Shown here one piece after another: positions 4,739 to 59,411 of a stretch of 64,000 bases of DNA. Numbering within the stretch: the first letter of the stretch is position 1; each line of letters opens with the position of its first letter. A program made the translations under genes and the position numbers. Source of the stretch: an uncultured Pseudomonas sp. (GTDB taxonomy: Bacteria; Pseudomonadota; Gammaproteobacteria; Pseudomonadales; Pseudomonadaceae). The stretch lies in assembly GCA_963529135.1 (NCBI GenBank), contig CAURYQ010000003.1, positions 19,827 to 83,826 of the forward strand, written 5' to 3'. The notes beneath the pieces are model-generated. The model ran no database searches and was not told where the DNA came from. It saw nothing but the letters and a program-made list of their open reading frames with translations.

Positions 4739-5344
4739 ATGGAACGTATCGCTGTCATCGACTTTGAAACCACCGGTATTTCCCCCGGTACCGGTTGCCG
4801 TGCCACCGAGGTGGCCGTGGTGATGCTGGAACGCGGGCGAATCGTGGAGCGCTATCAGAGTCTGATGAACGCCGGTGTGTCGGTGCCCGCTTTCGTGTCG
4901 GGGTTGACCGGCATCACCACCGCCATGGTGCGCAAGGCGCCGCCGGTGGAGCAGGTGATGAACGAGGTGGCCGAGTTCGTGGGCGCCACCCCGCTGTTGG
5001 CGCACAACGCTGCCTTCGACCAGAAGTTCTGGGACTTCGAGCTGGGCCGTATCGGCCGCAACCGCAGCCAGCCCTTCGCCTGCTCTCTGCTGCTGTCCCG
5101 ACGCTTGCTGCCGGCAGCCCCCAACCACAAGCTGGGCACCTTGACTCACTGGGCTGGGCTGCCGAACACCGGCACGGCCCACCGGGCCATGGCCGATGCG
5201 GAAATGGCCGCCAACTTGGTCCAGCACCTGGCCGGCGTGCTGCGTCAGGACCATGGTGTGCAGCAGCCTTCCCACGACCTGTTCTGCCGTTTGCAGAAAA
5301 CCCCCGCCGCCAAGGTGCGCGACGCGCTGGCGCTGTACCGCTGA
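4739..5344 (+). CDS. DEDDh 3'-5' exonuclease (DnaQ/epsilon-like domain protein)
   Basis: ExoI motif VIDFETTG, ExoII LLAHNAAFDQKF, ExoIII HRAMADAE. ATG at 4739 lies immediately after the NYN gene. Confidence 0.85.
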   Translation: MERIAVIDFETTGISPGTGCRATEVAVVMLERGRIVERYQSLMNAGVSVPAFVSGLTGITTAMVRKAPPVEQVMNEVAEFVGATPLLAHNAAFDQKFWDFELGRIGRNRSQPFACSLLLSRRLLPAAPNHKLGTLTHWAGLPNTGTAHRAMADAEMAANLVQHLAGVLRQDHGVQQPSHDLFCRLQKTPAAKVRDALALYR

Positions 5345-5475
5345 AGCGGGTAACGCCTGCTGCCAGAGGTCCACAGCCGCAAGTGTGCTGCCCATGCAGG
5401 CCCTTACTGTAACGTTGCCGCTGCGCTTTACGCCGTTAGACTGCCTCACCCGTAAAAAGGATTTTCGAGTTGACC

Positions 5476-9654: not shown

Positions 9655-10920
9655 TCAGCCCCTCGTCTTCCCCTGGCACTCGGCCCAGGCCGCCGCGGCT
9701 CGCCCGGCTCGTAGTCCGCTGGCGAAGCAGGCGGTTAGCAGGTATCCGCCCGTGGGCGCTTCCCAGTCCAGCATCTCGCCCGCACAGAACACCCCGGGCA
9801 GATGCTTTATCATCAGCCCCTCATCGAGGCCTTCGAAACGAACCCCGCCTGCGCTACTGATCGCTTCGTCCAGGGGGCGAGTGCGCACCAGCGTGATCGG
9901 CAGCGCCTTGATCGCCTTGGCAAGGGCCTGGGTGTCGGCGAAGGTCGCCGGGTCGGTCAGCTCGCGCAGCAGCGCCGCCTTGACCCCGTCCAGGCCCAGT
10001 TGCCCTTGCAGGTGCTTGGCCATGGAACGCGAACCCCTTGGCCGGGCCAGGGCCTGCGCGATTCTGTCCACAGGCTTGTCTGGTAGCAGGTCAAGTATCA
10101 ACACCCCGCTGCCAGACTGCTCGATGGCCGACCGCACCTGCGCGGACCAGGCGTACACCAGGCTACCCTCCACCCCTTGCGCAGTCAGAATGAATTCACC
10201 TTTGCGCGGCGCACTGCCTGGCACGCTAAGCGCAATATTCTTGACCGGAGCACCTGCAAACTTGTCCTTGAGCAACGCGCTCCAGGCATGCACCTCGAAC
10301 CCACAATTGCTCGGGCGCAGGGACGAGATATCCACAGCGCGGTCCGCAAGCACAGCCTGCCAGCTTCCATCGGACCCCAAGCGTGCCCAGCTGCCGCCAC
10401 CTAGCGCCAGCACCACGACTTCAGGGTAAATCGACCGCTCGCCCTGTGGATAAGCGATGCGCAGCGCGCCTTCTTCATTCCAGCCCAGCCAGCGGTGGCG
10501 GTTGTGGATAACCACGCCGGCTTCACGCAGGCGCTTGAGCCACGCCCTAAGCAACGGGGCGGCTTTCATGTCGGTCGGGAAGACCCGGCCCGAAGTGCCC
10601 ACGAACGTGGCGATGCCCAGGTCATGAATCCACTGGCGCAAGGCGTCCGCATCGAAGTCGCGCAGCAGCCCGTCAACCTCGGCTTGGCGCTCGGCGTAGC
10701 GCGCCGCAAACGCAGGGTAGGGCTCGGAATGAGTGATGTTCATGCCCCCCACGCCCGCCAGCAGGAACTTGCGGCCTACCGATGGCATGGCGTCGAAAAC
10801 CTCGACCGACAGCCCGGCTTGAGCCAGAGCTTCGGCCGCCATCAGGCCGGCCGGGCCGCCACCGATGACAGCGGCGCGGGGAAGGGCAGGGTGGTTCGAT
10901 TCGGTCATGGTGGGCTGCAA
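9655..10920 (-). CDS. BaiN/HI0933-like NAD(P)/FAD-dependent oxidoreductase
   Basis: Dinucleotide-binding AVIGGGPAGLMAAE near the N-terminus, with HI0933-family length and C-terminal CAGEMLDWEAPTGGY motif. Alternative start at 10908. Confidence 0.85.
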   Translation of the reverse strand: MQPTMTESNHPALPRAAVIGGGPAGLMAAEALAQAGLSVEVFDAMPSVGRKFLLAGVGGMNITHSEPYPAFAARYAERQAEVDGLLRDFDADALRQWIHDLGIATFVGTSGRVFPTDMKAAPLLRAWLKRLREAGVVIHNRHRWLGWNEEGALRIAYPQGERSIYPEVVVLALGGGSWARLGSDGSWQAVLADRAVDISSLRPSNCGFEVHAWSALLKDKFAGAPVKNIALSVPGSAPRKGEFILTAQGVEGSLVYAWSAQVRSAIEQSGSGVLILDLLPDKPVDRIAQALARPRGSRSMAKHLQGQLGLDGVKAALLRELTDPATFADTQALAKAIKALPITLVRTRPLDEAISSAGGVRFEGLDEGLMIKHLPGVFCAGEMLDWEAPTGGYLLTACFASGLRAGRAAAAWAECQGKTRG

Positions 10921-27887: not shown

Positions 27888-27950
27888 TGCACCATTTCGC
27901 AGTACTGACCAGCTTCGCCGTTGAGACAGTCATCCAGGGAGAACAAGGAC

Positions 27951-30900
27951 ATGTTTAACAAACTCGAGGCGGTGATCCTGACGGTTCTGAGCCAGCTGAA
28001 GGCCGACGTGCAGGACTACTGCGACCTTGAAACCGTCGACGGCGGGCAAGCCATTGTCGCCAATGACGGGTCTCTAGCCTCGATCGTGCGCTTCAATGGA
28101 ACCAAGAGCGTGCTTGGACGTGAGCAGTTCGAGCGCCTTGTTGGTTTGCTTGAGGCGTCCTTGGCTGTCTATTTCAAGGTGCGCGGTCATCATCTGCAGA
28201 TTGTCTTCAGCCGTGACTTGGATGCGACTGCACCCTTGGAGCAGAACGCCCAGCAGCAGGCCGCGACGGCTGAACGACTCAGCTTGAATGTGCGGCACCT
28301 GATCAACGAAGGTGTGCGCAAGTACGCTCAGTATGTGTACGACGAAGAGTGCTACCTGGTGTTCTGGTCACGTCCTGCGCTGTTGGACCAGACCGAGCGA
28401 GTCATGGCGCGTGAAGCACTGAACGAATTCCGTGCTCAATCACAATGGCCTGCCACGGCGGACGCGCAGAACCTGCTACGGCCCATTTCGTATTTAAAGG
28501 ATAGGCACCTGTCTTTCGTGACCAAGATCACGGAGGACCTGACCTCGCCTGAATTCGGCTGCTCCGCAGACGTGCTCGACGTCAGTGAGGCGATACGCGC
28601 CATCCGCGCCAAGGTCAATCCAGACATCACGCCTAGGACCTGGAAGCCTTATATTCCCGGCAATGGTATCCCGATGCGTTGGAAGACCAGCGGCCGGGCA
28701 GACGACATGTCGGAGTTCATGTACCCATCGCTGCCAAGCCAGATCATGGTCACCTCGGCCGAGATCGGCAATGGACAGCGCACAGGATTGTTACCCGACC
28801 CGACAAGCGTGCGCGTGGGGTCGCGGGTCTATGCACCGTTGATCATGTCGATCCCGCCGGCCGAACCGCAATATTTCAACACGTTGTTCAATAGCCTCAA
28901 CCGTGCGGAAACGCAAGAGAACGGCGTCTCGCGAGCCCTGCCGTATTCGGTCTCGGTGATGTTGTCTTCAGATGGCATGAGCGTGCTGGCGTGGAAAAGC
29001 CTGTTCGCCCAGTTGCTTTCGATCACCTCCGAGCAAAATCGCAACATCAACCTGGCGACCAAAGAGTTGCGCGAGCGGGTGCGGGACGGCGAGTGCATGG
29101 TCAAGCTGCAGGTGGCGGCCATGACTTGGTCCAGTCCTGATGAACGAGGTATCAAGGAACTCGCTTTGCGCAAGTCCAAGCTGTGGCGCACGTTGGAGGC
29201 TTGGGGGCAGCCGGTGTTCATAGAACGCACTGGCAACCCGATGCAGGCTTTTCAATCGAACTGCCTGGGGCTTACCACCAAGCATCTGGGTACGCCCGCG
29301 GCAGCACCGCTTGGTGATGCCGTAGCCATGCTGCCGCTGACCCGCCCGGCTTCACCGTTCCAGGAAGGCTCGACCATCTATCGAAGCCTTGACGGCAAAA
29401 TCCTCAAGTACCAGCGCTTTTCTTCCCAGCAGACCACATGGATCACACTGATTGCAGGCAAGCCGGGTTCCGGTAAGTCGGTGTTGATGAACAACAACCA
29501 TTTCGAGTCGTGCTTGATGCCGGGCCTGACTGGCCTACCCTACATTGGCATCACTGATATCGGGATTTCGTCCTCTGGGTTCTGCGATCTGGTGCGTGAC
29601 AACTTGCCACCGAGGCTGCATCACCTAGTGGTTTACAAGCGCTTGCAGAACGCCCGTAAGGATTGCATCAATCCGCTGGACACGCCGCTTGGCCAACGCT
29701 ACCCGCTACCCAAGGACCGTGAGTTCAACAAGAACTTTCTTACCATTCTGGTTACCCCACCAGAACGAGAAAAACCCTATGAGGGGATGAGCAACTTCGT
29801 CGGCCGTATGGTTGATTTGGCGTACCGTCGCAAGGACGACAAGATTGAGCGAGCCAGCCCCGAAACTTACAAGCCCGGCCACAACGATGTTGTGGACGCA
29901 GCGGTTGCCCAGTTGGGGTACCGTATTTTGCCTGCCACTACGTATTGGGAACTGGTCGATGCCATGTTCGACGCAGGCATGGTGTATGAAGCCGAGGTGA
30001 CGCAACGCTACGCCGTACCGACCTTGAACGACTTGGTAGCAGTGGCTTCGACGGAAGAGGTACGCGCTGAGTACGAGGGGTCTGGCGAAGTCGGGCGGAG
30101 TTTGGTGGATGCGTTCATTCTGGGCATTCGAGAGGCGGTGGGGGATTTCCCTGTATTTGCCGACCACACGCGCTTCGACGTCGGCAGCGCGCGGGTCGTT
30201 GCTCTCGACTTGCAGGACGTCGCTTTGCAGGGTTCGGCTTCGGCGAAGAAGCAGACGGCCCTGATGTACATGATCGCGCGTCAATGCTTCATGAAGAAAG
30301 TCGCGTTTTCCAAGGAAGATTTCCCGTTCTTCACTGAAAAATACTTGCCGTACTACGAGCGATTGGTCGCTGACCTGGTCGATGAATACAAAGTCATGTG
30401 CATGGACGAATTCCACAAGACCGGTGGTCATGTAGGTCTGCAGGAACAGATGCAGACCGATGGTCGTGAAGCCCGTAAGTGGAACATGGAGATCATCCTG
30501 GCTTCTCAGCTGATGGAGGATTTCGGCCCGCTCACCAAGATCGCCACGGCGACGTTCATCCTCGACTCAGGCACCAAAGAGACCCGCGATTGGCTGCGCA
30601 AGAACATCGGACTATCCGATACAGAGGAACATGCCTTGGTCAACTTCGTGCACGGCGCAAACAAGCATGGCTGTACGTTCCTGGCTCGCTTCGAAACCAA
30701 GAATGCCACGTATAGCCAGCTGTTCACCATGTCGGCAGGGCCCATGCGCCTTTGGGCACTGACCACCACGGCCGAAGACCGCAAGCTACGTACGATGCTG
30801 TATGAACACATGCCGCGCCCTGACGCGTTGGCCTTACTCGCACGACGTTTCCCGTCAGGGGGTTGCAAAGATATGGTCGAGCGGCTCAAACGTGAAACGT

Positions 30901-31013
30901 TCAAGGACGTCGAGTTTGTCGATGACGATATGGAGCAGTCCGTGATTGCGCGTATCGCCAAGGATCTGGTTGCCGACTACATCGGCGCCAGTGCATTCGA
31001 AGACGTCGTCTGA
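27951..31013 (+). CDS. icmB: IcmB/DotO (IncI TraU) VirB4-like T4BSS ATPase
   Basis: 1020 aa. Walker A LIAGKPGSGKSV, Walker B-like VMCMDEFHK and a typical IcmB N-terminus, DLETVDGGQAIVANDGSLASIVRFNGT. Confidence 0.9.
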   Translation: MFNKLEAVILTVLSQLKADVQDYCDLETVDGGQAIVANDGSLASIVRFNGTKSVLGREQFERLVGLLEASLAVYFKVRGHHLQIVFSRDLDATAPLEQNAQQQAATAERLSLNVRHLINEGVRKYAQYVYDEECYLVFWSRPALLDQTERVMAREALNEFRAQSQWPATADAQNLLRPISYLKDRHLSFVTKITEDLTSPEFGCSADVLDVSEAIRAIRAKVNPDITPRTWKPYIPGNGIPMRWKTSGRADDMSEFMYPSLPSQIMVTSAEIGNGQRTGLLPDPTSVRVGSRVYAPLIMSIPPAEPQYFNTLFNSLNRAETQENGVSRALPYSVSVMLSSDGMSVLAWKSLFAQLLSITSEQNRNINLATKELRERVRDGECMVKLQVAAMTWSSPDERGIKELALRKSKLWRTLEAWGQPVFIERTGNPMQAFQSNCLGLTTKHLGTPAAAPLGDAVAMLPLTRPASPFQEGSTIYRSLDGKILKYQRFSSQQTTWITLIAGKPGSGKSVLMNNNHFESCLMPGLTGLPYIGITDIGISSSGFCDLVRDNLPPRLHHLVVYKRLQNARKDCINPLDTPLGQRYPLPKDREFNKNFLTILVTPPEREKPYEGMSNFVGRMVDLAYRRKDDKIERASPETYKPGHNDVVDAAVAQLGYRILPATTYWELVDAMFDAGMVYEAEVTQRYAVPTLNDLVAVASTEEVRAEYEGSGEVGRSLVDAFILGIREAVGDFPVFADHTRFDVGSARVVALDLQDVALQGSASAKKQTALMYMIARQCFMKKVAFSKEDFPFFTEKYLPYYERLVADLVDEYKVMCMDEFHKTGGHVGLQEQMQTDGREARKWNMEIILASQLMEDFGPLTKIATATFILDSGTKETRDWLRKNIGLSDTEEHALVNFVHGANKHGCTFLARFETKNATYSQLFTMSAGPMRLWALTTTAEDRKLRTMLYEHMPRPDALALLARRFPSGGCKDMVERLKRETFKDVEFVDDDMEQSVIARIAKDLVADYIGASAFEDVV

Positions 31014-31024
31014 GGGGGTGACCG

Positions 31025-33895
31025 ATGGCTCAGTACAAAGGCGCCTCCCGTCAGCATGAGGTCAGTAACAATCGCCGGCGCAAAGACACTCGTCTGGCAG
31101 GGCAGCGTTTTGCCGACTTCTTCCAATCTGCCGAAGGCGCAGTGTTCGGCACCTTCGCATTGCCTGTGCTGGCATTGATCCTGATCAAGGTGCCCTTCTC
31201 CGGAGAATTGCTGCTGCTTGTGCTTTGGGCCTTCAAGCGTAAGTTCGTGGACACAAAAAACCGAGTCTTCGACTTCCCTTATCGTGTACCCAAGCTGGCT
31301 GAGGTCAACGACGGCTCGTACAAAGGGAAGAAGAAGGGTGAAGGTGTCACCCTGTTCGGTAACGACCTTGAGACTAAGGAGCAGATATACGCCGCTGACA
31401 GTGACCTGCGTACTCATCAACTGGTGCTGGGGACTACGGGCTCTGGTAAGCCGCAGCCCGAGCACGCCAAGGTACTGACGCCTGGTGGATGGGTCCGCAT
31501 GGGGCAGCTCAAGGTGGGAGACCTGGTCAGCACGCCTGATGGCCAGCAGGCGGCGGTCTTGCGCGTGATAGAGCAAGGGGTGCAACCGATATGGACCATT
31601 GCCACGCGAGATGGGCGTAAGGCGCAGGCGACCGGTGATCACCTCTGGCGAGTGCTCAGCCGTGAGCCTGATGGGACCGAGCAGGCCCATACCGTCACTA
31701 CCGATGTCATTCGTACGCTGCTCGATCGCGGTGTTTCAGTGATGTTGCCCAAGGTTCGCAAGAAGCGCGGCAGTGCTCGCTTCGACGGTTGGGCGCCGGT
31801 CTGGAGGGTTAACGCAGCCGGCCAGGCGCCGTGTCGGTGCATCGAAATTGACCACCCTCACCACCTGTACGTTACCGATGACAACTTGGTGACTCACAAC
31901 ACTGAGTTGCTCTTGGGCATCGTCTTCAACGCGTTGGTGCAAAACACCGGTTTCATTTATGTAGACGGCAAAGGTGACCCCAAGCTGCAGAAAGAAATCT
32001 TCCGGCTTTCCCGTTACCTGGGGCGTGAAGACGATCTGTTGATCATCAATTTCATCACCTCCGGGCGTGACTTTGTCGAGAAGCAGGTCGATAAGGTCAC
32101 CAATAACATGAACATGATGGGCAATACCTCATCGGGCATGTTAATCGAGCTGATCGTCTCGCTGATGGATGATTCCGGCGGTGGCGGCGACATGTGGAAA
32201 GGCCGAGCGATCATGTTCGTTGCCGCGCTTACCCGGCCGCTGACCTACCTGCGGGATAAGGGACACATCAACCTGTCGCCTGAGAAGTACCTGGAATACT
32301 TCGAGCTCAATGTCATCGAAGAGCTGGTATGGGAGCACGGGGGCAAGTATGGCGACATGTTCGATGTCATCGTCGCGCCTTTGCGTTCGTACCTGCTGAC
32401 ACTGCCTGGTTACCAAAAAGCCAAGTTCAAGAATCAGGAAACCAAGACCCTTGAGCAGCATGGCTACATCGTCATGCAGCTGGGACGGATCTTCAATGAC
32501 CTGACATTCAACTATGGCCACATCTTCAAAACTCGGGTGGGCGATGTGGATTTCTACGACGTCGTCATCAATCGGCGCCTGCTCGTTGTGCTCCTTCCGG
32601 CTCTGGAGCGTGCGCCGGATAGTATGCGCATGCTTGGGAAGATGATAGTTGGCAGTATCAAGCAGATGATGGCAGGTTGCCTTGGCAACCGCGTTGAAGG
32701 GGTGGTTCGCGAAATCATCGACAGTCGACCCACCGGGTCGCAATTTCCGTTCTACACCATTCTGGACGAGTACGGCTATTACGCGGTCGTCGGCTTCGCG
32801 GTAGCACCGGCGCAGGCGCGCAGCCTAGGGTTCAGTGTGACGTTCGCGGCTCAGGATTTTTCGTCATTGAAAAAGTCCAGTGCCGAAGAAGCTGACGCTA
32901 CATGGGAGAACACCAACATTCGGGCCGTCGGGCGTCTGACCTCCGGGACTGAGTCCGAAACCTGGCGGCGTGTTCAAGGCGCTGCGGCAGAATCTTCGCA
33001 GGCGATGCTGGGTAACTTCGAGCGATCATCGGGTGCTGTGAACGACAAGTTCCGCCAGTCGGACAGCATTGCCATCGAGCAGCGCAGCCGGTTGAACTAC
33101 GACGATGTGGCGATGCAGGAAAATGGCGAGTTCACGTTTCTGATCGGTAAGAAATCACAGGGCGGCAAGACCGGAGGCGTGGCACTGATTCGGGGGCTGG
33201 GCTTCTACACGGCAGGCCCTGCTCCGAAAGAAATGCGCATCAATGATTTCATCCCGGTCGAGCCGCCAGAGCCGGCCGATCTGCCGCAGAATCGCCAGTC
33301 ACGGCAAGCGTTGGTCGACAGCTTGAAAGACGGTTCCTTTGCCAAACGGGTCAACGATGTCGTCAAAGGTGACCCTGTGTTGGCGCGGATGCACAGCGCG
33401 TTCGAACACAACTACGTCAACCCTGACAGGCCCATACTGGGCCGCCTCGATACCTCTCTGGCTGTTACCGGTGCTTATCTGGCAGGCGCGTTGCGCAAGC
33501 GGCCACCGGCCACGGCTGCTCCGAGCGCACCGCCGTTGCCGTCCATCGAGGCCAGCATCATGGCTGTTGCAGATCGGTATGTCAGCGTTGAGAAAACCCC
33601 GGCGTTGAGTTCCTCAACCCCGGTTGCTGAACCAGCGCCAGCAGCGCTTACAGGCATCGAGCCGCAGCGTCTTATGGACATGCAAGTATTTGCTACAGGT
33701 AAGGCATTCCCATCGCTAGCCGAAAAGTGGGCTGCACAGGAGCGGGCCGAGCAAACCTGCGAAGCTGTACTGCAAGAGACGACCTATGCCGTGGCGTATC
33801 CTCCTGCTAAGCAGGATGTCGAAAACATCCGAAAGCGCATTAGCCAAATCAAAGTTGGATGCCGCCAGATGGATGGTGATCAGAAGCAAGAATGA
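31025..33895 (+). CDS. dotL: DotL/IcmO (IncI TrbC) type IV coupling ATPase, interrupted in-frame by a mini-intein
   Basis: N-terminal TM helices. Walker A split as GTTGSGK / T by a 150-aa insert. Downstream come IYVDGKGD, the TraD/TraG-type NTPase domain and a long C-terminal tail. Confidence 0.9.
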   Translation: MAQYKGASRQHEVSNNRRRKDTRLAGQRFADFFQSAEGAVFGTFALPVLALILIKVPFSGELLLLVLWAFKRKFVDTKNRVFDFPYRVPKLAEVNDGSYKGKKKGEGVTLFGNDLETKEQIYAADSDLRTHQLVLGTTGSGKPQPEHAKVLTPGGWVRMGQLKVGDLVSTPDGQQAAVLRVIEQGVQPIWTIATRDGRKAQATGDHLWRVLSREPDGTEQAHTVTTDVIRTLLDRGVSVMLPKVRKKRGSARFDGWAPVWRVNAAGQAPCRCIEIDHPHHLYVTDDNLVTHNTELLLGIVFNALVQNTGFIYVDGKGDPKLQKEIFRLSRYLGREDDLLIINFITSGRDFVEKQVDKVTNNMNMMGNTSSGMLIELIVSLMDDSGGGGDMWKGRAIMFVAALTRPLTYLRDKGHINLSPEKYLEYFELNVIEELVWEHGGKYGDMFDVIVAPLRSYLLTLPGYQKAKFKNQETKTLEQHGYIVMQLGRIFNDLTFNYGHIFKTRVGDVDFYDVVINRRLLVVLLPALERAPDSMRMLGKMIVGSIKQMMAGCLGNRVEGVVREIIDSRPTGSQFPFYTILDEYGYYAVVGFAVAPAQARSLGFSVTFAAQDFSSLKKSSAEEADATWENTNIRAVGRLTSGTESETWRRVQGAAAESSQAMLGNFERSSGAVNDKFRQSDSIAIEQRSRLNYDDVAMQENGEFTFLIGKKSQGGKTGGVALIRGLGFYTAGPAPKEMRINDFIPVEPPEPADLPQNRQSRQALVDSLKDGSFAKRVNDVVKGDPVLARMHSAFEHNYVNPDRPILGRLDTSLAVTGAYLAGALRKRPPATAAPSAPPLPSIEASIMAVADRYVSVEKTPALSSSTPVAEPAPAALTGIEPQRLMDMQVFATGKAFPSLAEKWAAQERAEQTCEAVLQETTYAVAYPPAKQDVENIRKRISQIKVGCRQMDGDQKQE
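31451..31900 (+). other. Mini-intein (150 aa, Hint domain, class 3 signature) inside the DotL P-loop
   Basis: The insert runs from PQPEHAKVLTPGGWVRMGQLKVGDLV to ATGDHLW, APCRCIEIDHPHHLYVTDDNLVTHN, then +1 Thr. Block B is TxxH with Trp two residues later, block F has Cys, and block G reads T-H-N. Excision restores GTTGSGKT. Confidence 0.8.
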
Positions 33896-45731: not shown

Positions 45732-48700
45732 ATGGCCCAGATGCCGTTTTCTCCATGCAGCGATGCAAGCAATTGCACCGACCAATCGGTCCACATGCTT
45801 GGAAGGATTTTCGGGCCTGTCATCGACTCGCTGGTCAAAGGGATTGACCCCAACACCGTCGATGCAGGGAATAACATCCTTGCGACCATGTTCAGTTTCT
45901 TCAATAGCGGCATCCTTATCATCGGTTCGCTGATCGTCTCCTACGTGGCGGTCATGGGCGTGACCAATACGGCGAACGATGGTGAGGCCATGGGCAGGAG
46001 CTGGTCGTCCCTGTGGACCCCTGTTCGGATCGTCGTGGGTGGGGCCGTGTTGTTGCCAACCACGAGCGGCTTTTCCTTCATTCAGCTGATTGTGCTGATG
46101 TTTTCGCTGTGGGGCGTCGGGTTTGCCAATGGCACCTACAAGGCTGGGATGGCCATGGGCATATTGTCTCCTGACGGTTTGGTCGCAGGCGTTAATGCAC
46201 CCGGTAATTTCTACGGGCTGAGGGATTTCGCCCGGCAGTACGCGAGCGCAGCGTACTGCGCAAGAGCCGCCACGTACGTATACAGCGGGGCTAATGTAAC
46301 GCCCGTGTCTACCGGTGGTGCCCCCGTGCCTGACAAGACGATGGTGGTCGACGGCCGAAGGGAGCAGACGTTTTTCCTGAAAGATCGGAATGAAGCGAGC
46401 AACCTGGCCGGCGGCTCTGCTATCTGTGGCACCGTCAAACTCTCATCCTACTCGCCGCAACCAGCCGAAGAAGCGATACCGCAGGCGCTTGAGCAGCTGC
46501 GCGCTACTGTGCAAGGCAAAAAGGTGGAGATGGCGCTTCTACTCATGGCGGACATCAGAACCTGGGTTGGGAGCTGGCCATTCACGGTGAATGATCCCGG
46601 TTGGGAAAATGTTGACTCCAATCGCCTCAACGAGATCGTCAAGGCGCGGGAAGCTCAGTTGGCTTCGCAGCTGGCCGCCGAGGTCACCAACCAGCAGGGT
46701 GGAGTCGAAAATGGCCTTGAGGCCTTCATAAAGACACTGACCGACGACGGCTGGGCTGCCGCAGGGGGCTGGTTCCAGCGAGTAGGGATGGTTCGCAGTC
46801 AAATCGCGGGTGTGCTAGCCGATCCTGTAGGCTCGGTCGGCGCTCCCTCGTTAGGGGGGCTGCCCGCTGACGCGCGCGCCTCACTGTTGACCAACAGTGT
46901 CACTACTGTTGCTGAAGCGATCAATGCCAAGGCTGAGGAACGTACAAGCAGTACGCAATCGAGAGCCACCAAGGCCGAGGACATTGCCAGCCTGATTCCC
47001 AAGGACCCAAAGAGCGATATCAACCTCAGCTCGTTGCGTACGGACATGGACGCCAAGATGTCCTCATTCGTCAACGGGGTGATGCTAAACGTGGTGGAAA
47101 TCGCTACTGGAGCGGGCAGTAACGGCCAGACCCCGCTTTGCGGGACGGCGGGGCAGATGGGGGGATCGCTTAACCGCATGAAATGCGTGGGCGACTACCT
47201 GACCGTGGCCCGGGCAGGCATTCTAGTAGCGGATGTGGCCATCAAGACCGCAGGTACTGCAATACGAGTAATTGCCGGTACGCTGTCGTCGGTCAAAGGT
47301 TTGGGTAATGGGCTTGATCTGGACAAGATCGTCACACCCTTGTGGGACTGGGTACTGGAGGTGCCGGTCAAACAGTTGGCGCTCATGGCGACCTACATGG
47401 AGCCGTTGGCTTTCTATTTCGGGGTCTTCCTGCCGAGCCTGCCTTATACCCTGTTCATGATCGTATTCGTCGGCTGGGTACTTGCCGTGTTGCAGTCGAT
47501 CATCGCTGCCCCGTTATGGGCAGTAATGCACATGACGCCTGACCGTACCTTCGTAGGCTCGCAGACTCAGGGCTACTTGCTACTGCTGTCTCTGTTCGCA
47601 CGGCCGGCCCTTGCCATCCTTGGCCTATTCGCTGCTGTTCTGGTATCCGACCCGGTGATCGACTACATCGCCAAAGGGTTCTTCGCAATGCGTGGGGCTG
47701 TTGTCACGTCGTCCGGCAACGTAGGAGCTATCTCGGATTTCCTGACGTTTGCCTGGTGGTTCATGGTCTTCGGCTTGACGCTGCTACCGGTGCTTTACAT
47801 GACCTTCGGCTTGCCGCAGACGCTACCCGATACAGTGCTTACCTGGATAGGTGGTGGCCTGCAGAGCATGGGTGAAACCAGTGCCGTAGGTGACATGCGC
47901 GGTGGCATGGCCCGCGTTGGCTCAAGCGTGCAGGGCTCCAGCACCGGTATGCGCTTGGGAGGTGGTAATGCACAAGGCAAGCTCAGTGGGCCCAATGGCG
48001 GGCCGCCAGATGGTCCACAGGGCGGTGGCCCGGGTGGCGGCGGCGGAGGTATCGGCGGTGCTGGGTCCAGTGGTGGCGGACGTCCAGCGCTTCTCAATGC
48101 CAACAACCAGGGCGTGGGTGGAGATGGTCAGGATTCGGGCAGTGGCGGCGGTGGGGCCGCCGGACAGGATGCGGCACAGGCCAACCGTACCTTTGGTGAG
48201 AAGGTGTCAGATGCTGCCGGCGTTGGGCTGGGACGAGCCATTACCGGCACTGCCGGTGCTACGGGCCGGGCCATGCGTGGCGCCGGCGGTGCTGCCTTGT
48301 CAGCCGGTCGCGCGGGAATCGAGTCATTCCGCAGTCCAGATGGTGGCTCCTCCGCAGCCCGTGTTCGCAGCGGACTCAAGGCAGGGGCATTGGCTGCGGG
48401 TGCTGGATTGGCTGGAGCAGCGAGCCGGGCCGGCGCCGATTACAAACAAGCCTTCTCAACCGCAGGTGCAGAAGGAAAGGCCGCGTTCAACGAAGGCAGC
48501 GACGCACGGATCAAGGCTTATAAAGAGTCGCTTGCAGGCGGTTCGGCACCTGCCGGTAGCGAAGCGGGTGGTGAACCCGTTGGAGGTGATACCGGGCGGT
48601 CAGGCACGGACGTGGCGGGCCAGGGCTTCGAGCAATCAGCCAGCCCAGCCGGTTCGGCACCTGCCGGTAGCGAAATGGATGGTGAGCCCGCTGGGATTGA

Positions 48701-49010
48701 TGCCGGGCGTTCAGGCATGGGCGGGGCGGGTCAGGGCTTCGAGCAATCAGCCAGCCCAGTCGGCTCGGCGCAGGCAGGCAGTGGATCTTCCGTGCCGGGC
48801 AGCACCACCTCGGGCGTTGGGGGCGCAGGCCAAGCGTTCAGCGAGGCGTCAAGCCCTGCGGGTGCCGCGCCCGGCAGCAGTGCTGATACATCTACGGGTA
48901 GTGATGAACGTGCTGGCGGTGGTCAAAACAGCGCGAGTCGCCCAGCGGCACGCACAGGTGATCCCTATGCAACCGACCGTTCGACGGTAGGTAATCAGGA
49001 CGATAAATGA
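45732..49010 (+). CDS. dotA: DotA/TraY-family polytopic membrane protein with a long Gly/Ser/Ala-rich repetitive C-terminal extension
   Basis: The N-terminal block LGRIFGPVIDSL...NILATMFSFFNSGILIIGSLIVSYVAVMGVTNTANDGEAMGRSWSSLWTPVRIVVGGAVLLPT matches the DotA signature region. Multiple TM helices occur around residues 560-700. The tail from about residue 740 is low complexity. Confidence 0.85.
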   Translation: MAQMPFSPCSDASNCTDQSVHMLGRIFGPVIDSLVKGIDPNTVDAGNNILATMFSFFNSGILIIGSLIVSYVAVMGVTNTANDGEAMGRSWSSLWTPVRIVVGGAVLLPTTSGFSFIQLIVLMFSLWGVGFANGTYKAGMAMGILSPDGLVAGVNAPGNFYGLRDFARQYASAAYCARAATYVYSGANVTPVSTGGAPVPDKTMVVDGRREQTFFLKDRNEASNLAGGSAICGTVKLSSYSPQPAEEAIPQALEQLRATVQGKKVEMALLLMADIRTWVGSWPFTVNDPGWENVDSNRLNEIVKAREAQLASQLAAEVTNQQGGVENGLEAFIKTLTDDGWAAAGGWFQRVGMVRSQIAGVLADPVGSVGAPSLGGLPADARASLLTNSVTTVAEAINAKAEERTSSTQSRATKAEDIASLIPKDPKSDINLSSLRTDMDAKMSSFVNGVMLNVVEIATGAGSNGQTPLCGTAGQMGGSLNRMKCVGDYLTVARAGILVADVAIKTAGTAIRVIAGTLSSVKGLGNGLDLDKIVTPLWDWVLEVPVKQLALMATYMEPLAFYFGVFLPSLPYTLFMIVFVGWVLAVLQSIIAAPLWAVMHMTPDRTFVGSQTQGYLLLLSLFARPALAILGLFAAVLVSDPVIDYIAKGFFAMRGAVVTSSGNVGAISDFLTFAWWFMVFGLTLLPVLYMTFGLPQTLPDTVLTWIGGGLQSMGETSAVGDMRGGMARVGSSVQGSSTGMRLGGGNAQGKLSGPNGGPPDGPQGGGPGGGGGGIGGAGSSGGGRPALLNANNQGVGGDGQDSGSGGGGAAGQDAAQANRTFGEKVSDAAGVGLGRAITGTAGATGRAMRGAGGAALSAGRAGIESFRSPDGGSSAARVRSGLKAGALAAGAGLAGAASRAGADYKQAFSTAGAEGKAAFNEGSDARIKAYKESLAGGSAPAGSEAGGEPVGGDTGRSGTDVAGQGFEQSASPAGSAPAGSEMDGEPAGIDAGRSGMGGAGQGFEQSASPVGSAQAGSGSSVPGSTTSGVGGAGQAFSEASSPAGAAPGSSADTSTGSDERAGGGQNSASRPAARTGDPYATDRSTVGNQDDK
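48540..48785 (+). repeat. 111-bp (37-aa) in-frame tandem repeat, 2 full copies plus a partial third, in the dotA tail
   Basis: Copies start at 48540, 48651 and 48762. Peptide unit: GSAPAGSE(A/M)(G/D)GEP(V/A)G(G/I)D(T/A)GRSG(T/M)(D/G)(V/G)AGQGFEQSASP(A/V). Confidence 0.85.
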
Positions 49011-50090: not shown

Positions 50091-51869
50091 ATGAGCGGTT
50101 CATTGCACATCACCATCTATCTCGACGGCACGCGAAACAACAAGGACAATGACGGGCCGCAGGGTACCCACACCAACGTAGCGCGGCTCTACGATATTGA
50201 CGCCGCCAGGGGCACGAATCTCGCCCGCAATTCCAGCCATGCACCCGTGCAATACGATTGGCAGGCGTGCGACGGCTTGGCCGAGAAAGTTTATCTGGAC
50301 GGTGTCGGTAGCCAGCGTCGTAACAAGCCCGCCAGTGCATTCGAGTGCGCAACAGGGGCAGGTGGCCGAAGTCGTATAGAGCAGGCCTATGCAGTGCTTG
50401 TAGCGTTTCACAACAAATACCCGGACCGCACGGTAGATGTGAACTTGGTAGGGTTCAGTCGCGGCGCCGCCCAGGCGCGCGCGCTGTCCAACGTGTTCAT
50501 CGAACGGGGCGTGCCCAAGCTCGATAGCCAGCGTCGACCCACCGGTGATTATCTGGTGCAACCCGGTCAAGCGACGGTAAACAAGCTGGCCATCTTCGAT
50601 ACGGTGGCGTCATACGGTAACCCGCTTACCGATTTTCATCTGAACAAAAACCTTGAAATCCACCGAAACGTCGCTTCTACCACGCACTTGATTGCGATGA
50701 ATGAATACCGTGCGACTTTTCCGTTGACCAGTGCGCTGCGCAGTGATGACAACACGCGAATCGAGGAAATCAAGTTTGCCGGAGCACATTCGCAGGTAGG
50801 CGGCGGTTATAGAAACGATGTACTGGCTGCAGGCCCGCTTGCGCTCATGCATCAACGCCTCCAGGCGGCCAGCGTAGCGCTGGGACCTTTGTTACCTGCG
50901 GATGCATTGCGCGTAGAACAATACAATGCGCTGATCAGTGACCCGGTGCGGTTGCAGCAGGCGTTGATCGACTCTCGATTATCCGAGGGGAACGAGGCGT
51001 TCGAACTTGATGATGAAGGTGTCTACAAGGCTGTCGACAATAGCCCGTTCGCGCTCGAGCGCGGCACGTTCAGGCGCTGGGACAAACAAAAGCATCCTTT
51101 TGATCATGTCGTATCTGGACGCAAGGTGATTTATGAGAATGATCAATCGCTGTCCAAACCGCTGACACACATACGCAACGAAGCGCTGGCGCGATGGGCC
51201 AGGTCAGGCCAGGATGGACCTCTGGTTGAGCCCGTGGGTGTGGCGAAGTCCGAAGAAACACTCAAGCGGGGTGCCGATTTCGAAAGCAAGCTGGCAGCGC
51301 TAGATGCCAGCTGTCAGGCCCAGGTCGAGCAGCTCTCGGAACTGCTGACGCGCTCCCGGCCAGACGTCCCTTATCTACAGCAACTGGGACTGGCAGCTGT
51401 GCCAGTGTCATGCGCTGCACGCTACGCCGTAGTGAGGATCAACCCTGAAGGCTCCGCCGCATTCACTGACTTGGGCTTTGAGTACGAACTGGGCCGTATT
51501 CTCGAAGATGCCGCAGACGGTGCCAGAGCTACCGCGCCTCTCAAGATGGACCAGGCATTGCCATTGCACGACACCAATGGGAATGTTGTAGGCAGCCTGC
51601 AGGCCATGCATGAAGTCCCGCCGCGTGAGGATCAAGGGGTAATGATAGCGCTGGACATGCAAGGGGTTTCGATAGGGGCTCAGGCAGATTTTCTGCACGA
51701 TGGGTTTCAGCAGGCAGCCGCTTGGGTTGCGCATCAGGAGCCGGGCCTGCATAGCAATGCATGGATAATACCGGGGAGGGACGGTCAGCCTGTTGGGCAG
51801 GCGTACATCGAAAAAGCTCCAGAGCATGACGTGCAACCCATTGTCGCTTGGGACGGCCCACAACCGTAA
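50091..51869 (+). CDS. DUF2235 / Tle1-like alpha/beta-hydrolase (putative phospholipase effector) with an unknown 350-aa C-terminal region
   Basis: ITIYLDGTRNN (FDGT.N motif), nucleophile elbow GFSRGA (GxSxG) and FAGAHSQVGGGY (HSDVGGGY motif), all in the N-terminal 240 aa. Confidence 0.8.
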   Translation: MSGSLHITIYLDGTRNNKDNDGPQGTHTNVARLYDIDAARGTNLARNSSHAPVQYDWQACDGLAEKVYLDGVGSQRRNKPASAFECATGAGGRSRIEQAYAVLVAFHNKYPDRTVDVNLVGFSRGAAQARALSNVFIERGVPKLDSQRRPTGDYLVQPGQATVNKLAIFDTVASYGNPLTDFHLNKNLEIHRNVASTTHLIAMNEYRATFPLTSALRSDDNTRIEEIKFAGAHSQVGGGYRNDVLAAGPLALMHQRLQAASVALGPLLPADALRVEQYNALISDPVRLQQALIDSRLSEGNEAFELDDEGVYKAVDNSPFALERGTFRRWDKQKHPFDHVVSGRKVIYENDQSLSKPLTHIRNEALARWARSGQDGPLVEPVGVAKSEETLKRGADFESKLAALDASCQAQVEQLSELLTRSRPDVPYLQQLGLAAVPVSCAARYAVVRINPEGSAAFTDLGFEYELGRILEDAADGARATAPLKMDQALPLHDTNGNVVGSLQAMHEVPPREDQGVMIALDMQGVSIGAQADFLHDGFQQAAAWVAHQEPGLHSNAWIIPGRDGQPVGQAYIEKAPEHDVQPIVAWDGPQP

Positions 51870-58264: not shown

Positions 58265-59398
58265 TTATCTAATGGATCTGGTAACAGCTCCTTTCTGAGC
58301 GCGATCTCGTGCCCATTCGGTCTGTGCCCGTTGACCTGCCAATTTCTGCGACGCGTAAACGGCAAGCAGTGCTTCAACTTTTTCTTTCTTGCGATAAATC
58401 GCTTCCGAGAGATAGTTACTAACCCCTACCGCTCGGTTGTAGTCGACCCAGAGGGCGCGACTGGAAACGTGGGTGATACTGGTGTTCCACTCTGCATCGC
58501 TAAACCGCCTGGTGGCTTCAGTCGTCAACATTTCAGCGACCGACATCGTGTCATACCCACCTATGGGTGGAGTAGGGAGCGCACCGTAACCATCGGCATC
58601 GGACAGATACGCTGCAGGTACCTTGCCGTCAGCCTGCGCCAGCGCCGCGTCGGCGTTGGCAGCTGCCACTTGCACAGGTTCCACTGTCGAGTCCGGCTGC
58701 ACGCCACCTGATGGCACGTTGCCGAACAGGATTTCGTGCTGGGCCTTGGTGTCCTTGCCCAGGATCGGATAATGCTCTGGGTGTCCGTCTTGAATAGGGT
58801 AAGTTTGGCAGAAATAGGGGGCTGGGTCAGTTTTCCAACCAATGTCTGCCTGGCGGTTGAACACAGGCGCTAGCTGCCCGGCATTGAAGGGACCCTTGTG
58901 CGCGTTTTCAGCGAACGCCTTGGCACGGGCCGAATCCTTGGCAGCCGTTCCATAGGTGAAGTGAAGGTGCTTGACCATCGATGCGCTGGGTGTGTTGCCT
59001 GACAAGCCCAGTTGTTGCCCGGGTTTCACCGTGACCCCGCGCTTGACCCCATTGGCGAAACCGCTCAGGTGGTAATAGGCCACCACGTCGCCATTGGCGC
59101 GTTCGATCAGCACGGCGTTGCCGGCCGAGCCGCGCAGGCCGGCAAAGACGATTTTGCCTTCGGTGGTTGCGTAAACCGGCTGTGACGAGCCGCTGGTGGA
59201 AAAGTCCAGGCCATCGTGCATGTGCGCTTTCTTGTTGGCTGAGCCAAAGTTGCCTGCACCACCGCCACGGAACTTGCCGAAGCGCCCTGAGACGACTTCT
59301 TTGTCCGTAGGAGACACCATGCATGTGTCTGCAAGGGTTGCTTGGGCTATGGCAATCATCGTGATGGCAACCATGCCACGCATAACGGTTGTGTTCAT
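58265..59398 (-). CDS. Secreted M23-family metallopeptidase (peptidoglycan endopeptidase) with an extra C-terminal domain
   Basis: Signal peptide. HxxxD motif (HMHDGLDF) and HxH-type motif (VKHLHFTYG) of LytM/M23. The 170-aa C-terminal extension ends in a helical region reminiscent of the upstream paralogues. Confidence 0.8.
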   Translation of the reverse strand: MNTTVMRGMVAITMIAIAQATLADTCMVSPTDKEVVSGRFGKFRGGGAGNFGSANKKAHMHDGLDFSTSGSSQPVYATTEGKIVFAGLRGSAGNAVLIERANGDVVAYYHLSGFANGVKRGVTVKPGQQLGLSGNTPSASMVKHLHFTYGTAAKDSARAKAFAENAHKGPFNAGQLAPVFNRQADIGWKTDPAPYFCQTYPIQDGHPEHYPILGKDTKAQHEILFGNVPSGGVQPDSTVEPVQVAAANADAALAQADGKVPAAYLSDADGYGALPTPPIGGYDTMSVAEMLTTEATRRFSDAEWNTSITHVSSRALWVDYNRAVGVSNYLSEAIYRKKEKVEALLAVYASQKLAGQRAQTEWARDRAQKGAVTRSIR

Positions 59399-59411
59399 GC
59401 GGGATGCTCCG

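What the first reader, a model, noticed from the sequence alone, without database searches (positions are those of the whole stretch)
31451..31900. Class 3-type mini-intein inserted exactly in the Walker A P-loop of the DotL coupling ATPase
Seen: the 956-aa DotL ORF reads ...HQLVLGTTGSGK | PQPEHAKVLTPGGWVRMGQLKVGDLV...RKAQATGDHLWRVL...APCRCIEIDHPHHLYVTDDNLVTHN | TELLLGIVFNALV.... Removing residues 143-292 (150 aa, in frame) recreates a canonical GTTGSGKT P-loop. The insert has Hint-domain blocks. Block A is VLTPGGW..G.LKVGD.V. Block B is TxxH (T203, H206) with Trp two residues later (W208). Block F has Cys (C272) where class 1 inteins have Asp. Block G ends Thr-His-Asn (290-292) and is followed by a +1 Thr. 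Residue 1 is Pro, not Cys/Ser/Thr. Established: a non-nucleophilic residue 1 together with the Trp(B12)-Cys(F4)-Thr(G5) triad defines class 3 inteins, which splice through a block F cysteine branched intermediate. The absence of an endonuclease domain makes this a mini-intein. Inference: the T4BSS coupling ATPase cannot bind ATP until it is spliced, so splicing could act as a post-translational gate on secretion. I am not aware of inteins being a described feature of Dot/Icm coupling proteins.
Basis: partly seen in the sequence, partly recalled or inferred. Interest (0 to 1): 0.85.

Follow-up and report, generated by a model that had tools for sequence, protein, structure and literature searches.

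The report
Class 3 mini-intein in DotL P-loop
The coupling ATPase (DotL/IcmO) of a conjugation-type secretion system in this window is interrupted in its ATP-binding loop by a small self-splicing protein element; the reading is correct, but it is an ordinary member of a very large, already described intein family.

Summary
The 956-aa ORF at 31025..33895 (+) has a 150-aa in-frame insert (nt 31451-31900) exactly between GTTGSGK and TELLLG. Of the 120 best homologues, 79 read GTTGSGKTE without interruption. Forty carry an insert at the identical junction.

The insert is a HINT-fold mini-intein with the full class 3 signature: Pro1, His64, Trp66 (B12), Cys130 (F4), Thr148-His149-Asn150, and Thr+1. 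Its best sequence and fold matches in the PDB are the class 3 inteins Msm DnaB-1 (6BS8) and Mch DnaB-1 (6RIX/6RIY). The catalytic residues are invariant across 29 aligned alleles. The intein is under purifying selection. The in-silico spliced 806-aa product is colinear with Legionella IcmO/DotL (6SZ9).

The novelty claim is overstated:
- A class 3 mini-intein in IcmO (Bvi IcmO) is published and was shown to splice. It lies at a different site, which is empty here.
- Lys|Thr is called the "classic" P-loop intein site in the literature.
- This intein belongs to a family with about 15,000 cluster representatives across many P-loop NTPases, including other coupling proteins.

The "splicing as a gate on secretion" idea has no support here.

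Verdict: a new member of a known kind, of low to moderate interest.

The parts
31025..33895 (+). DotL/IcmO (TrbC-type) type IV coupling protein precursor. It is 956 aa and 105.8 kDa, intein included.
   Evidence: ORF. Homologues are named DotL/IcmO. The spliced product matches Legionella IcmO(DotL) 6SZ9_A at E=5e-139.
31025..31450 (+). N-extein (aa 1-142). It ends with the first part of Walker A, GTTGSGK (nt 31430-31450).
31451..31900 (+). Class 3 mini-intein: 150 aa, 16.6 kDa, HINT fold, no homing endonuclease domain.
31451..31528 (+). Block A region (PQPEHAKVLTPGGWVRMGQLKVGDLV). Residue 1 is Pro, which is not a nucleophile.
   Evidence: Aligns with the N-terminus of Msm DnaB-1 and Mch DnaB-1. 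Pro1 is at least 90% conserved in the family. The class 3 prototype MP-Be DnaB also has Pro1.
31628..31654 (+). Block B (ATGDHLWRV): Thr61(B7), His64(B10), Trp66(B12) in intein numbering, which are ORF residues T203, H206 and W208.
   Evidence: H64, L65 and W66 are invariant in 29 alleles. They align with His65/Trp67 of Msm DnaB-1.
31829..31873 (+). Block F (PCRCIEIDHPHHLYV): Cys130(F4), ORF residue C272, is the predicted branch nucleophile. Cys128(F2) forms a CxC pair with it.
   Evidence: C130, D134, H138, L139 and Y140 are invariant. C130 aligns with catalytic Cys118 of Msm DnaB-1. A Cys at F2 occurs in 30 of 147 related inteins.
31883..31903 (+). Block G (NLVTHN|T): Thr148(G5), His149, Asn150(G7), and the +1 Thr293, which is also the Walker A Thr.
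   Evidence: T148, H149 and N150 are invariant. All alleles have Thr at +1.
31901..33892 (+). C-extein (aa 293-956): the rest of the ATPase core, Walker B (FYTILDEYG, nt 32750-32776), the TraG-D_C region and a fast-evolving C-terminal tail.
32816..32836 (+). Unoccupied second intein site (ARSLGF|S). This is where the published Bvi IcmO intein sits in B. vietnamiensis G4.
27921..31013 (+). DotO/IcmB-type ATPase gene immediately upstream (context).
   Evidence: The megablast match is annotated 'type IV secretion protein DotO' in P. savastanoi plasmid NZ_CP032457.

Best explanation
The insert is a splicing-competent class 3 mini-intein, translated in frame inside the Walker A motif of the DotL/IcmO-type coupling ATPase of a conjugative type IVB system.

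Shown here:
- The junction is exact (GTTGSGK|P...THN|T).
- The insert has a HINT fold.
- It is homologous to class 3 inteins that have been verified by experiment.
- All catalytic residues are invariant, and the insert is under purifying selection.
- Intein-less alleles exist.
- The in-silico spliced product is colinear with Legionella DotL.

Inferred from the established class 3 pathway (Tori et al. 2010; Tori & Perler 2017):
1. Cys130 (block F4, ORF C272) attacks the Lys142-Pro143 peptide bond, assisted by His64 and Trp66. This gives a thioester branched intermediate.
2. The N-extein is transferred to the side-chain oxygen of Thr293 (+1).
3. Asn150 (ORF N292) cyclises and releases the 16.6-kDa intein.
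4. An O-to-N acyl shift makes the Lys142-Thr293 peptide bond.

The result is an 806-aa, 89.2-kDa DotL with an intact GTTGSGKT P-loop. The precursor should be unable to bind and hydrolyse ATP.

The element is most simply a selfish remnant. It is a mini derivative of the endonuclease-bearing P-loop inteins that occupy the same Lys|Thr site in many NTPases. It has been inherited largely with the dotL gene and lost precisely from time to time.
For: - Junction and alleles.
- Homology to class 3 inteins: 6BS8 at E=3.5e-10 and 6RIX/6RIY at about 1e-7 over the full length, with His/Trp/Cys/Thr-His-Asn aligned. His65, Trp67, Cys118 and Asn139 of Msm DnaB-1 are the residues assigned in Tori & Perler 2017; Trp(B12) and Cys(F4) were mutated there and shown to be required.
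- Structure: AF2 mean pLDDT 97.6 and pTM 0.90. The seven best Foldseek hits are chains of three class 3 intein entries (6RIY, 6RIX, 6BS8), and further inteins and Hedgehog domains follow.
- Conservation: H64, L65, W66, C130, D134, H138, L139, Y140, T148, H149 and N150 are invariant over 29 alleles that are 39-84% identical to the window copy.
- Selection: dN/dS is 0.05-0.09 in the intein against 0.005-0.018 in the ATPase core, compared with six Pseudomonas alleles. GC3 of the intein (0.713) equals that of the DotL core (0.712).
- Evolution: intein and extein distances correlate (Mantel r=0.65, 0 of 2000 permutations reach it). Intein-less alleles are interleaved in the extein tree.
- Endonuclease-bearing relatives at the same site: P0116/P0118 in DotL homologues and pKAZ5 TraD carry LAGLIDADG domains.
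- Host identity: the spliced product matches 6SZ9_A IcmO(DotL) at E=5e-139 in one stretch, residues 5-636 against 3-629. Its neighbours are DotI, DotH, DotG, DotO, DotB-like and DotM.
Against: - No splicing experiment exists for this allele or for any P-loop DotL intein.
- Curated Pfam and NCBIfam intein models stay below their thresholds, so the assignment rests on homology to individual inteins and on the predicted fold.
- dS is saturated (above 1) in all comparisons, so the dN/dS values are rough.
- Purifying selection on an intein is expected whether or not it has any host function, so it does not settle what the element does for the host.
- The Cys48 that Msm DnaB-1 needs for activity has no counterpart here; Ile47 aligns with it.
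Confidence: 0.85

Rival explanations
1. Regulatory gate. The intein splices conditionally, for example with the F2/F4 Cys128-x-Cys130 pair acting as a redox or metal toggle. DotL ATPase activity, and hence conjugative transfer, is released only under permissive conditions. This would come on top of the class 3 mechanism rather than replace it.
For: There is precedent in the closest solved relative. Splicing of Msm DnaB-1 is reversibly blocked by oxidation, through a disulfide to its catalytic Cys118, and by zinc (PMC6195587, PMC7360933). Cys128 is present in all 37 mini-intein homologues at this DotL site. The catalytic thiol makes every class 3 intein potentially sensitive to redox state.
Against: There are no data on kinetics or conditions. 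Intein-less alleles up to 95.5% identical in the extein core occur next to intein-bearing ones, so no lineage depends on such a gate. A Cys at F2 is a common variant of the wider family (30 of 147) in unrelated host proteins, and the Bvi IcmO intein has Ala there. The Cys48 partner of the Msm toggle is absent.
Confidence: 0.12
2. Dead or crippled intein. The element no longer splices, so this dotL copy is effectively a pseudogene and the island is not self-transmissible. The Arthrobacter FB24 Arth_1007 intein is a described case of this kind.
For: Non-functional inteins exist (PMC3196547, listed). Chromosomal islands often decay. The B. vietnamiensis IcmO gene that holds the published intein is itself split by an IS-type integrase gene.
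Against: Every catalytic residue is intact and invariant. Both the intein and the exteins show strong purifying selection. The ORF is full length, and its N-terminus matches homologues. The flanking T4BSS genes are intact ORFs.
Confidence: 0.06
3. Splicing by a route other than class 3. One option is a class 2 (KlbA-like) direct attack of Thr+1 on the N-terminal junction. The other is that the insert is a permanent, non-splicing HINT-like domain.
For: Pro1 excludes class 1 but does not by itself separate class 2 from class 3.
Against: Class 2 inteins lack the Trp-Cys-Thr triplet, and here it is invariant. In the related Bvi IcmO, Msm DnaB-1 and MP-Be DnaB inteins the F4 Cys is absolutely required, and the +1 residue cannot substitute for it. 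A permanent domain between the Lys and Thr of Walker A is incompatible with the P-loop geometry seen in the 79 uninterrupted homologues and in Legionella DotL.
Confidence: 0.03

Closest known systems
Bvi IcmO intein (Burkholderia vietnamiensis G4, plasmid pBVIE03; InBase; Tori et al. 2010, Tori & Perler 2017)
   Same: It has the same host protein family (IcmO/DotL). It is also a class 3 mini-intein (142 aa against 150 aa), begins PQP.H and ends VTHN. His-x-Trp and the F4 Cys are conserved. It is 34% identical over the full length. Splicing and the requirement for the F4 Cys were shown by experiment.
   Different: The insertion site differs. Bvi sits at ARSLGF|CITFA, downstream of Walker B, and its P-loop is intact. 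Here that site is empty and the intein lies in the P-loop. Bvi has Cys at +1, which is unique among class 3 inteins, whereas this one has the usual Thr. Bvi has Ala at F2, and this one has Cys.
Msm DnaB-1 (DnaBi1) and Mch DnaB-1 class 3 mini-inteins (PDB 6BS8, 6RIX/6RIY)
   Same: They give the best sequence and fold matches. They are mini-inteins at the Lys|Ser/Thr position of a P-loop. The catalytic His, Trp, Cys and Thr-His-Asn align residue for residue. An intein in this position is assumed to block ATPase function until it splices.
   Different: The host is the replicative helicase DnaB of actinobacteria. The Foldseek rows give 22-25% identity. Msm needs Cys48 and uses it for a redox disulfide; there is no equivalent here.
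The 'classic' P-loop class 3 intein family (GK|AQPLD...C.I.DHP.HLY.TD..VTHN|T/S), e.g. MP-Be DnaB and TerL1-a
   Same: It has the same junction, the same block motifs and the same Trp-Cys-Thr triplet. A profile built from the DotL inteins finds 14,911 cluster representatives (8,544 at E<=1e-10) in ClpB-like, DnaB, SNF2, terminase-like and TraD/TraG-type proteins.
   Different: Most members start with Ala (77 of 82 parsed) and are about 350 aa long with a LAGLIDADG endonuclease. This one starts with Pro, as MP-Be DnaB does, and has lost the endonuclease.
Endonuclease-bearing inteins at the same site of other coupling proteins (DotL homologues P0052/P0116/P0118; IncC-type plasmid pKAZ5 TraD)
   Same: They occupy the same Lys|Thr site of a type IV coupling protein and are 39-40% identical in the splicing blocks.
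   Different: They are 260-368 aa long, begin with Ala1 and mostly carry LAGLIDADG domains (Pfam hit for P0116 and pKAZ5 TraD, none for P0052). They lack the F2 Cys.

Membership tests
Intein (HINT-domain protein-splicing element) | In-frame insertion in a conserved host motif, with intein-less alleles that read through the same junction | tested here: met
   79 of 120 homologues read GTTGSGKTE[FLY]LLG. 41 sequences, including the window, have the insert exactly between K and T.
Intein (HINT-domain protein-splicing element) | HINT fold | tested here: met
   AF2 pLDDT is 97.6. Foldseek gives 52 PDB hits at E<=1e-3, and the 50 listed are inteins, bacterial intein-like (BIL) domains or Hedgehog autoprocessing domains.
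Intein (HINT-domain protein-splicing element) | Match to curated intein/Hint profiles above threshold | tested here: not met
   Hint_2 scores 17.6 against 28.4 bits, Intein_splicing 14.5 against 35.8, and intein_Cterm 12.4 against 15.6. These are weak but correctly placed partial hits. Membership is established instead through phmmer to solved inteins (E=3.5e-10) and through the fold.
Intein (HINT-domain protein-splicing element) | C-terminal His-Asn followed by a Ser/Thr/Cys +1 nucleophile | tested here: met
   H149-N150|T293, invariant.
Intein (HINT-domain protein-splicing element) | Autocatalytic excision with ligation of the exteins | not testable with these tools
   This needs expression followed by western blot and mass spectrometry. 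[quoted passage not shown]
Class 3 intein | No Cys/Ser/Thr nucleophile at residue 1 | tested here: met
   Pro143 is intein residue 1. Among the alleles, 38 of 41 have Pro1 and 3 have Ala1.
Class 3 intein | Trp(B12)-Cys(F4)-Thr(G5) triplet | tested here: met
   W66, C130 and T148 are invariant in 29 alleles. W66 and C130 align with Trp67 and Cys118 of Msm DnaB-1, and T148 aligns with its block G Thr.
Class 3 intein | Ser or Thr at +1 | tested here: met
   Thr293.
Class 3 intein | Obligate block F Cys branched intermediate that forms before the block G branch | not testable with these tools
   This is a biochemical criterion. It requires a C272A mutant and a test of whether the trapped intermediate is thiol-labile.
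Mini-intein | No homing endonuclease domain between blocks B and F | tested here: met
   The insert is 150 aa and the model is a single compact domain. Pfam finds no LAGLIDADG or HNH hit. Larger alleles at the same site do contain LAGLIDADG_3.
Type IV coupling protein, DotL/IcmO (TrbC) type | Homology over the whole ATPase region to DotL/IcmO, with Walker A and Walker B motifs | tested here: met
   The spliced product matches 6SZ9_A at E=5e-139, residues 5-636 against 3-629. TraG-D_C scores 23.3 bits against a cut-off of 22. Walker B FYTILDEYG is present. NCBIfam TrbC_conju is only a partial match (270.8 bits against a cut-off of 800), so it is not the R64 TrbC equivalog.
Type IV coupling protein, DotL/IcmO (TrbC) type | Located in a type IVB (Dot/Icm-like) gene cluster | tested here: met
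   DotI/IcmL, DotH/IcmK, a TrbI/DotG-like gene, DotO, SLT, T4SS_TraI, a T2SSE (DotB-like) gene and DotM_C are present.

The most novel reading that the evidence does not exclude
The endonuclease-free Pro1 mini-intein, with its Cys128-x-Cys130 pair at block F2/F4, may have been co-opted as a redox- or metal-sensitive switch. It would hold the coupling ATPase of this Pseudomonas conjugative island inactive under stress, so that DNA transfer is licensed after translation. It would be the conjugation counterpart of the mycobacterial DnaB-1 intein sensor. A secondary point is that related Pro1 mini-inteins occupy two different sites of the same protein family (the P-loop here, ARSLGF|C in B. vietnamiensis). 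That hints at ectopic movement within one gene.
Probability: 0.1. Interest if true: 0.65.

Novelty: new member of a known kind. Interest (0 to 1): 0.3.

Why it matters
As it stands, this matters mainly for annotation. P-loop inteins in type IV coupling proteins are common in sequence databases: in Pseudomonas, Xanthomonas, Rhodanobacter and Zoogloea DotL, and in the TraD of IncC-type plasmids from clinical Enterobacteriaceae. They fall below the curated Pfam and NCBIfam thresholds and are not flagged in RefSeq product names. I found no paper in the searchable library that describes them, apart from Bvi IcmO at another site.

Protein lengths, domain calls and MOB/MPF typing of these elements are therefore slightly off. 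The FtsK_SpoIIIE domain hit is lost when the intein is present.

If splicing proved to be conditional, it would be a post-translational control point on horizontal gene transfer and a possible anti-conjugation target. That is conjecture. For intein technology, a compact 150-aa class 3 intein with a Lys(-1)/Thr(+1) junction is one more candidate part, not a new principle.

Tried and rejected
- Curated profile scans (Pfam, NCBIfam) gave only sub-threshold hits. I did not take this as evidence against an intein, because the pairwise and fold evidence is strong.
- I looked for a compositional sign of recent acquisition. Overall GC is higher in the intein (0.627 against 0.55-0.56), but GC3 is identical to the host gene (0.713 against 0.712). 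The difference therefore comes from amino-acid composition, not from foreign origin.
- dN/dS: dS is saturated even against the closest alleles, so I claim only the qualitative result that dN is far below dS.
- I tested whether the CxC pair is special to DotL inteins. It is not: F2 is Cys in 30 of 147 related inteins.
- I considered whether the Msm DnaB-1 Cys48 redox partner is conserved. It is not.
- Supplementary tables of Novikova et al. 2016, which might list VirD4/TraG/IcmO inteins, are not held.
- Literature searches for intein with DotL, TraD, coupling protein or T4CP returned nothing relevant. Absence from this library does not prove absence from the literature or from InBase.
- Rfam found nothing in the window.
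- The 237-aa antisense ORF at 30977..31690 that overlaps the intein DNA was treated as a chance ORF in GC-rich sequence and was not pursued.
- The coordinates of the AF2 model were not available to scripts, so the Cys128-Cys130 geometry could not be measured.
Full report

Yes. It starts 12 nt after the stop of the upstream 1030-aa gene. Residue numbering was checked by script: P143, T203, H206, W208, C270, C272, T290, H291, N292, T293. The insert is aa 143-292, which is nt 31451-31900.

A search with the whole protein returned 1,488 relatives. Among the 120 best:
- 79 read ...LGTTGSGKTE[FLY]LLG... without interruption.
- 40, plus the window copy, carry an insert exactly between the Lys and the Thr.
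- 38 of those 41 inserts are 145-157 aa long, start PQP or PQG, and end VTHN followed by Thr.
- 3 inserts (P0052, P0116, P0118) are 260-264 aa long and start AQP.

**2. What is it?**

*Sequence.* phmmer of the 150-aa insert against all PDB chains gives, as the three best hits, the class 3 inteins for which structures exist. These are Mycobacterium smegmatis DnaB-1 (6BS8, E=3.5e-10) and M. chimaera DnaB-1 (6RIX/6RIY, about 1e-7). The alignments run end to end. In them:
- H64-x-W66 aligns with His65/Trp67 of Msm DnaB-1.
- C130 in ...APCRCIEIDHPHHLY... aligns with Cys118 in ...VPVRCVEVDNPEHLY....
- T148-H149-N150 aligns with the C-terminal Thr-His-Asn.

Tori & Perler (PMC5222942) assign His65, Trp67, Cys118 and Asn139 as B10, B12, F4 and G7. 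They showed that F4 Cys is absolutely required and that mutation of Trp B12 blocks splicing.

*Structure.* An AlphaFold2 model built on an alignment of 29 alleles has mean pLDDT 97.6 and pTM 0.90. It is a single all-beta domain with one short helix. Foldseek against the PDB ranks 6RIY, 6BS8 and 6RIX first. Prp8, gp41-1, DnaB, DnaE, RecA and GyrA inteins follow, then Hedgehog autoprocessing domains, all at probability 1.00.

*Conservation.* Across 29 alleles that are 39-84% identical to the window copy, the invariant positions include H64, L65, W66, C130, D134, H138, L139, Y140, T148, H149 and N150. Pro1 is at least 90% conserved. All alleles have Thr at +1.

*Size.* With 150 residues there is no room for an endonuclease and no hit to one. 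P0116, one of the larger alleles at the same site, does contain a LAGLIDADG_3 domain.

*Caveat.* The curated models stay below their thresholds: Hint_2 17.6 against 28.4 bits, Intein_splicing 14.5 against 35.8, and intein_Cterm 12.4 against 15.6. This explains why database annotations do not mention an intein.

**3. The host protein and its surroundings**

Splicing the sequence in silico gives an 806-aa, 89.2-kDa protein. It aligns in one stretch (5-636 against 3-629) with Legionella IcmO(DotL), PDB 6SZ9, at E=5e-139. The Pfam FtsK_SpoIIIE hit rises from 12.8 to 23 bits once the insert is removed. In line with this, the precomputed Pfam column shows PF01580 for most intein-less homologues and for none of the intein-bearing ones.

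Neighbouring genes encode DotI/IcmL, DotH/IcmK, a TrbI/DotG-like protein, DotO, an SLT transglycosylase, a T4SS_TraI protein, a T2SSE (DotB-like) ATPase and a DotM_C protein. The first ~21 kb of the window carry housekeeping genes (HrpB, a DEAD-box helicase, an amino-acid permease) at GC 0.63. The transfer cluster has GC 0.57.

I read this as a conjugative type IVB (MPF_I-like) system on a chromosomal island of a Pseudomonas putida-group organism. The basis for the organism is that the closest intein copies lie in P. hunanensis, P. parafulva, P. juntendi and unnamed Pseudomonas genomes, at 78-86% amino-acid identity in the intein. The identical protein is on record in one ENA metagenome assembly.

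**4. How it most likely works**

By homology with MP-Be DnaB, Msm DnaB-1 and Bvi IcmO, the inferred pathway is:
1. Cys130 (F4) attacks the Lys142-Pro143 bond and forms a thioester branch.
2. The N-extein moves to the oxygen of Thr293.
3. Asn150 cyclises and releases the intein.
4. An O-to-N shift restores Lys-Thr, and with it the Walker A motif GTTGSGKT.

A Pro at position 1 has precedent in the class 3 prototype, where the scissile bond is Gln-1/Pro1. None of these chemical steps can be shown with these tools.

What can be shown is that the element is kept intact. Against six Pseudomonas alleles, dN in the intein is 0.10-0.15 and dS is above 1, so omega is roughly 0.05-0.09. The ATPase core has dN 0.007-0.018, and the C-terminal tail has dN 0.32-0.48 (dS is saturated, so this is qualitative only). 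GC3 of the intein (0.713) equals that of the DotL core (0.712), so the element is compositionally at home.

**5. Evolutionary picture**

In a neighbour-joining tree of the exteins, intein-bearing and intein-less alleles are interleaved. For example, P0011 (with intein) is 95.5% identical in the extein core to P0053 (without). Intein and extein distances nevertheless correlate (Mantel r=0.65; 0 of 2000 permutations reach it). The pattern fits mainly vertical co-descent with the gene, plus repeated precise loss or re-acquisition by recombination.

A profile of the DotL inteins finds 14,911 representatives of 50%-identity clusters (8,544 at E<=1e-10). In species-representative genomes, the relatives sit at GK|T or GK|S of several kinds of protein (my reading of the flanking P-loop contexts printed): ClpB-like chaperones, DnaB, SNF2 helicases, terminase-like proteins and TraD/TraG-type coupling proteins. 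Among the best 150 representatives, 77 of 82 parsed P-loop inteins begin with Ala, typical lengths are about 350 aa, and +1 is Thr (73) or Ser (9). The window copy is thus a Pro1, endonuclease-free derivative within a very large and promiscuous P-loop intein family.

**6. Comparison with what is known**

- Tori et al. 2010 defined class 3 by a non-nucleophilic residue 1 together with the Trp-Cys-Thr triplet and Ser/Thr at +1. [quoted passage not shown]
- Kelley et al. 2016 call the Lys|Thr position the "classic" P-loop intein insertion.
- Novikova et al. 2016 list inteins in VirB4 and VirB11 among secretion-system proteins.
- An IcmO intein is already published. Bvi IcmO is 142 aa, class 3, and was shown to splice.

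I recovered Bvi IcmO from plasmid pBVIE03. It is 34% identical to the window intein, and it also starts PQP.H and ends VTHN. However, it is inserted at ARSLGF|CITFA, and that protein's P-loop is intact. The window protein has the corresponding site empty (ARSLGF|SVTFA, aa 598-604).

It may be right for this particular site: I found no paper in the searchable library that describes a P-loop intein in DotL, TraD or any other T4CP.

**7. The gating idea**

It is reasonable to say that the precursor cannot bind ATP. The same is assumed for Msm DnaB-1, and it was shown for RadA. Conditional splicing has precedent in the closest solved relative, where it is caused by oxidation and zinc.

Nothing here indicates regulation, however:
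- The Cys48 partner of the mycobacterial toggle is absent.
- The Cys128-x-Cys130 pair is conserved in the DotL mini-inteins but is a common variant of the wider family (30 of 147).
- Close intein-less alleles show that the element is dispensable.

I give the gate about 0.1.

**8. Verdict**

The class 3 mini-intein reading is strongly supported (0.85 for a splicing-competent class 3 intein). It is a new member of a known kind. Interest is about 0.3: it is a good catch from raw sequence and useful for annotation, and it is a reasonable candidate for a splicing or conjugation experiment. It would not surprise an intein specialist.

Noticed in passing
L042 (KR827394.1 pKAZ5, IncC/MPF_F/MOBH plasmid) 2443-5415; also NZ_AP019818, NZ_AP028316/9, NZ_AP019688, NZ_AP028311: The TraD coupling protein of pKAZ5, a conjugative IncC-type plasmid from an uncultured bacterium, is 990 aa long. 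It carries a 368-aa LAGLIDADG-containing class 3-type intein at the same Lys|Thr P-loop site (GTTGSGK|AQPLD...VVTHN|TRMFD). Related intein sequences match in plasmids from clinical Enterobacter, Citrobacter, Klebsiella and E. coli, where no gene or only a hypothetical protein is annotated under the match. I found no paper describing this.
   Followed up: partly
L041 (CP000619.1, B. vietnamiensis G4 pBVIE03) 1406-5968: The IcmO gene that hosts the experimentally studied Bvi IcmO intein is itself split. A 305-aa N-terminal fragment with an intact P-loop is followed by an oppositely oriented 'integrase, catalytic region' gene, and then by an 856-aa 'hypothetical protein' that holds the intein. 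The published intein therefore sits in a disrupted host gene.
   Followed up: partly
window 31832-31840 (Cys270-Arg-Cys272, intein C128/C130): There is a CxC pair at block F positions 2 and 4. The F2 Cys is present in all 37 mini-intein homologues at this DotL site but is absent from the larger Ala1 alleles and from Bvi IcmO. It occurs in about 20% (30 of 147) of related class 3 inteins. It is a possible redox or metal site, and it is untested.
   Followed up: partly
window 33301-33892 (DotL aa ~760-956): The C-terminal tail of DotL evolves very fast (dN 0.32-0.48 against 0.007-0.018 in the ATPase core, versus Pseudomonas alleles). Its GC3 drops to 0.48, against 0.71 in the rest of the gene. 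In Legionella this region binds adaptor proteins; here its partners are unknown.
   Followed up: no
window 10836-10915: ARAGORN calls an 80-nt tRNA-Val(GAC) here, but Rfam at gathering threshold finds no tRNA or any other RNA family in the window. The site lies inside long ORFs on both strands. It is probably a false positive.
   Followed up: partly
window ~1-21000 versus ~22000-45000: There is a compositional and functional break. Housekeeping genes (HrpB, a DEAD-box helicase, a zinc-type alcohol dehydrogenase, an amino-acid permease) at GC 0.63 are followed by the T4BSS cluster at GC 0.57. This suggests a chromosomally integrated conjugative island. Its ends, integrase and att sites were not located.
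   Followed up: no
window 50091-51869 and 58265-59485(-): A protein with a T6SS Tle1-like phospholipase domain and an M23 peptidase are encoded downstream of the transfer genes. A 1092-aa ORF (45732-49010) and DotO (27921-31013) get no Pfam hit at E<=1e-3.
   Followed up: no
L013 (MAG Burkholderia sp. JAYFRU010000019.1) 3001-3801: A more distant DotL-like protein (…YVGTTGSGK|PQPFDS…MECRCIYVDHPDHLY…VTHN|TEAIL) carries a 267-aa Pro1/CxC intein at the same site. This may be an intermediate between the full-size and mini forms of the Pro1 clade. No LAGLIDADG hit was detected.
   Followed up: partly
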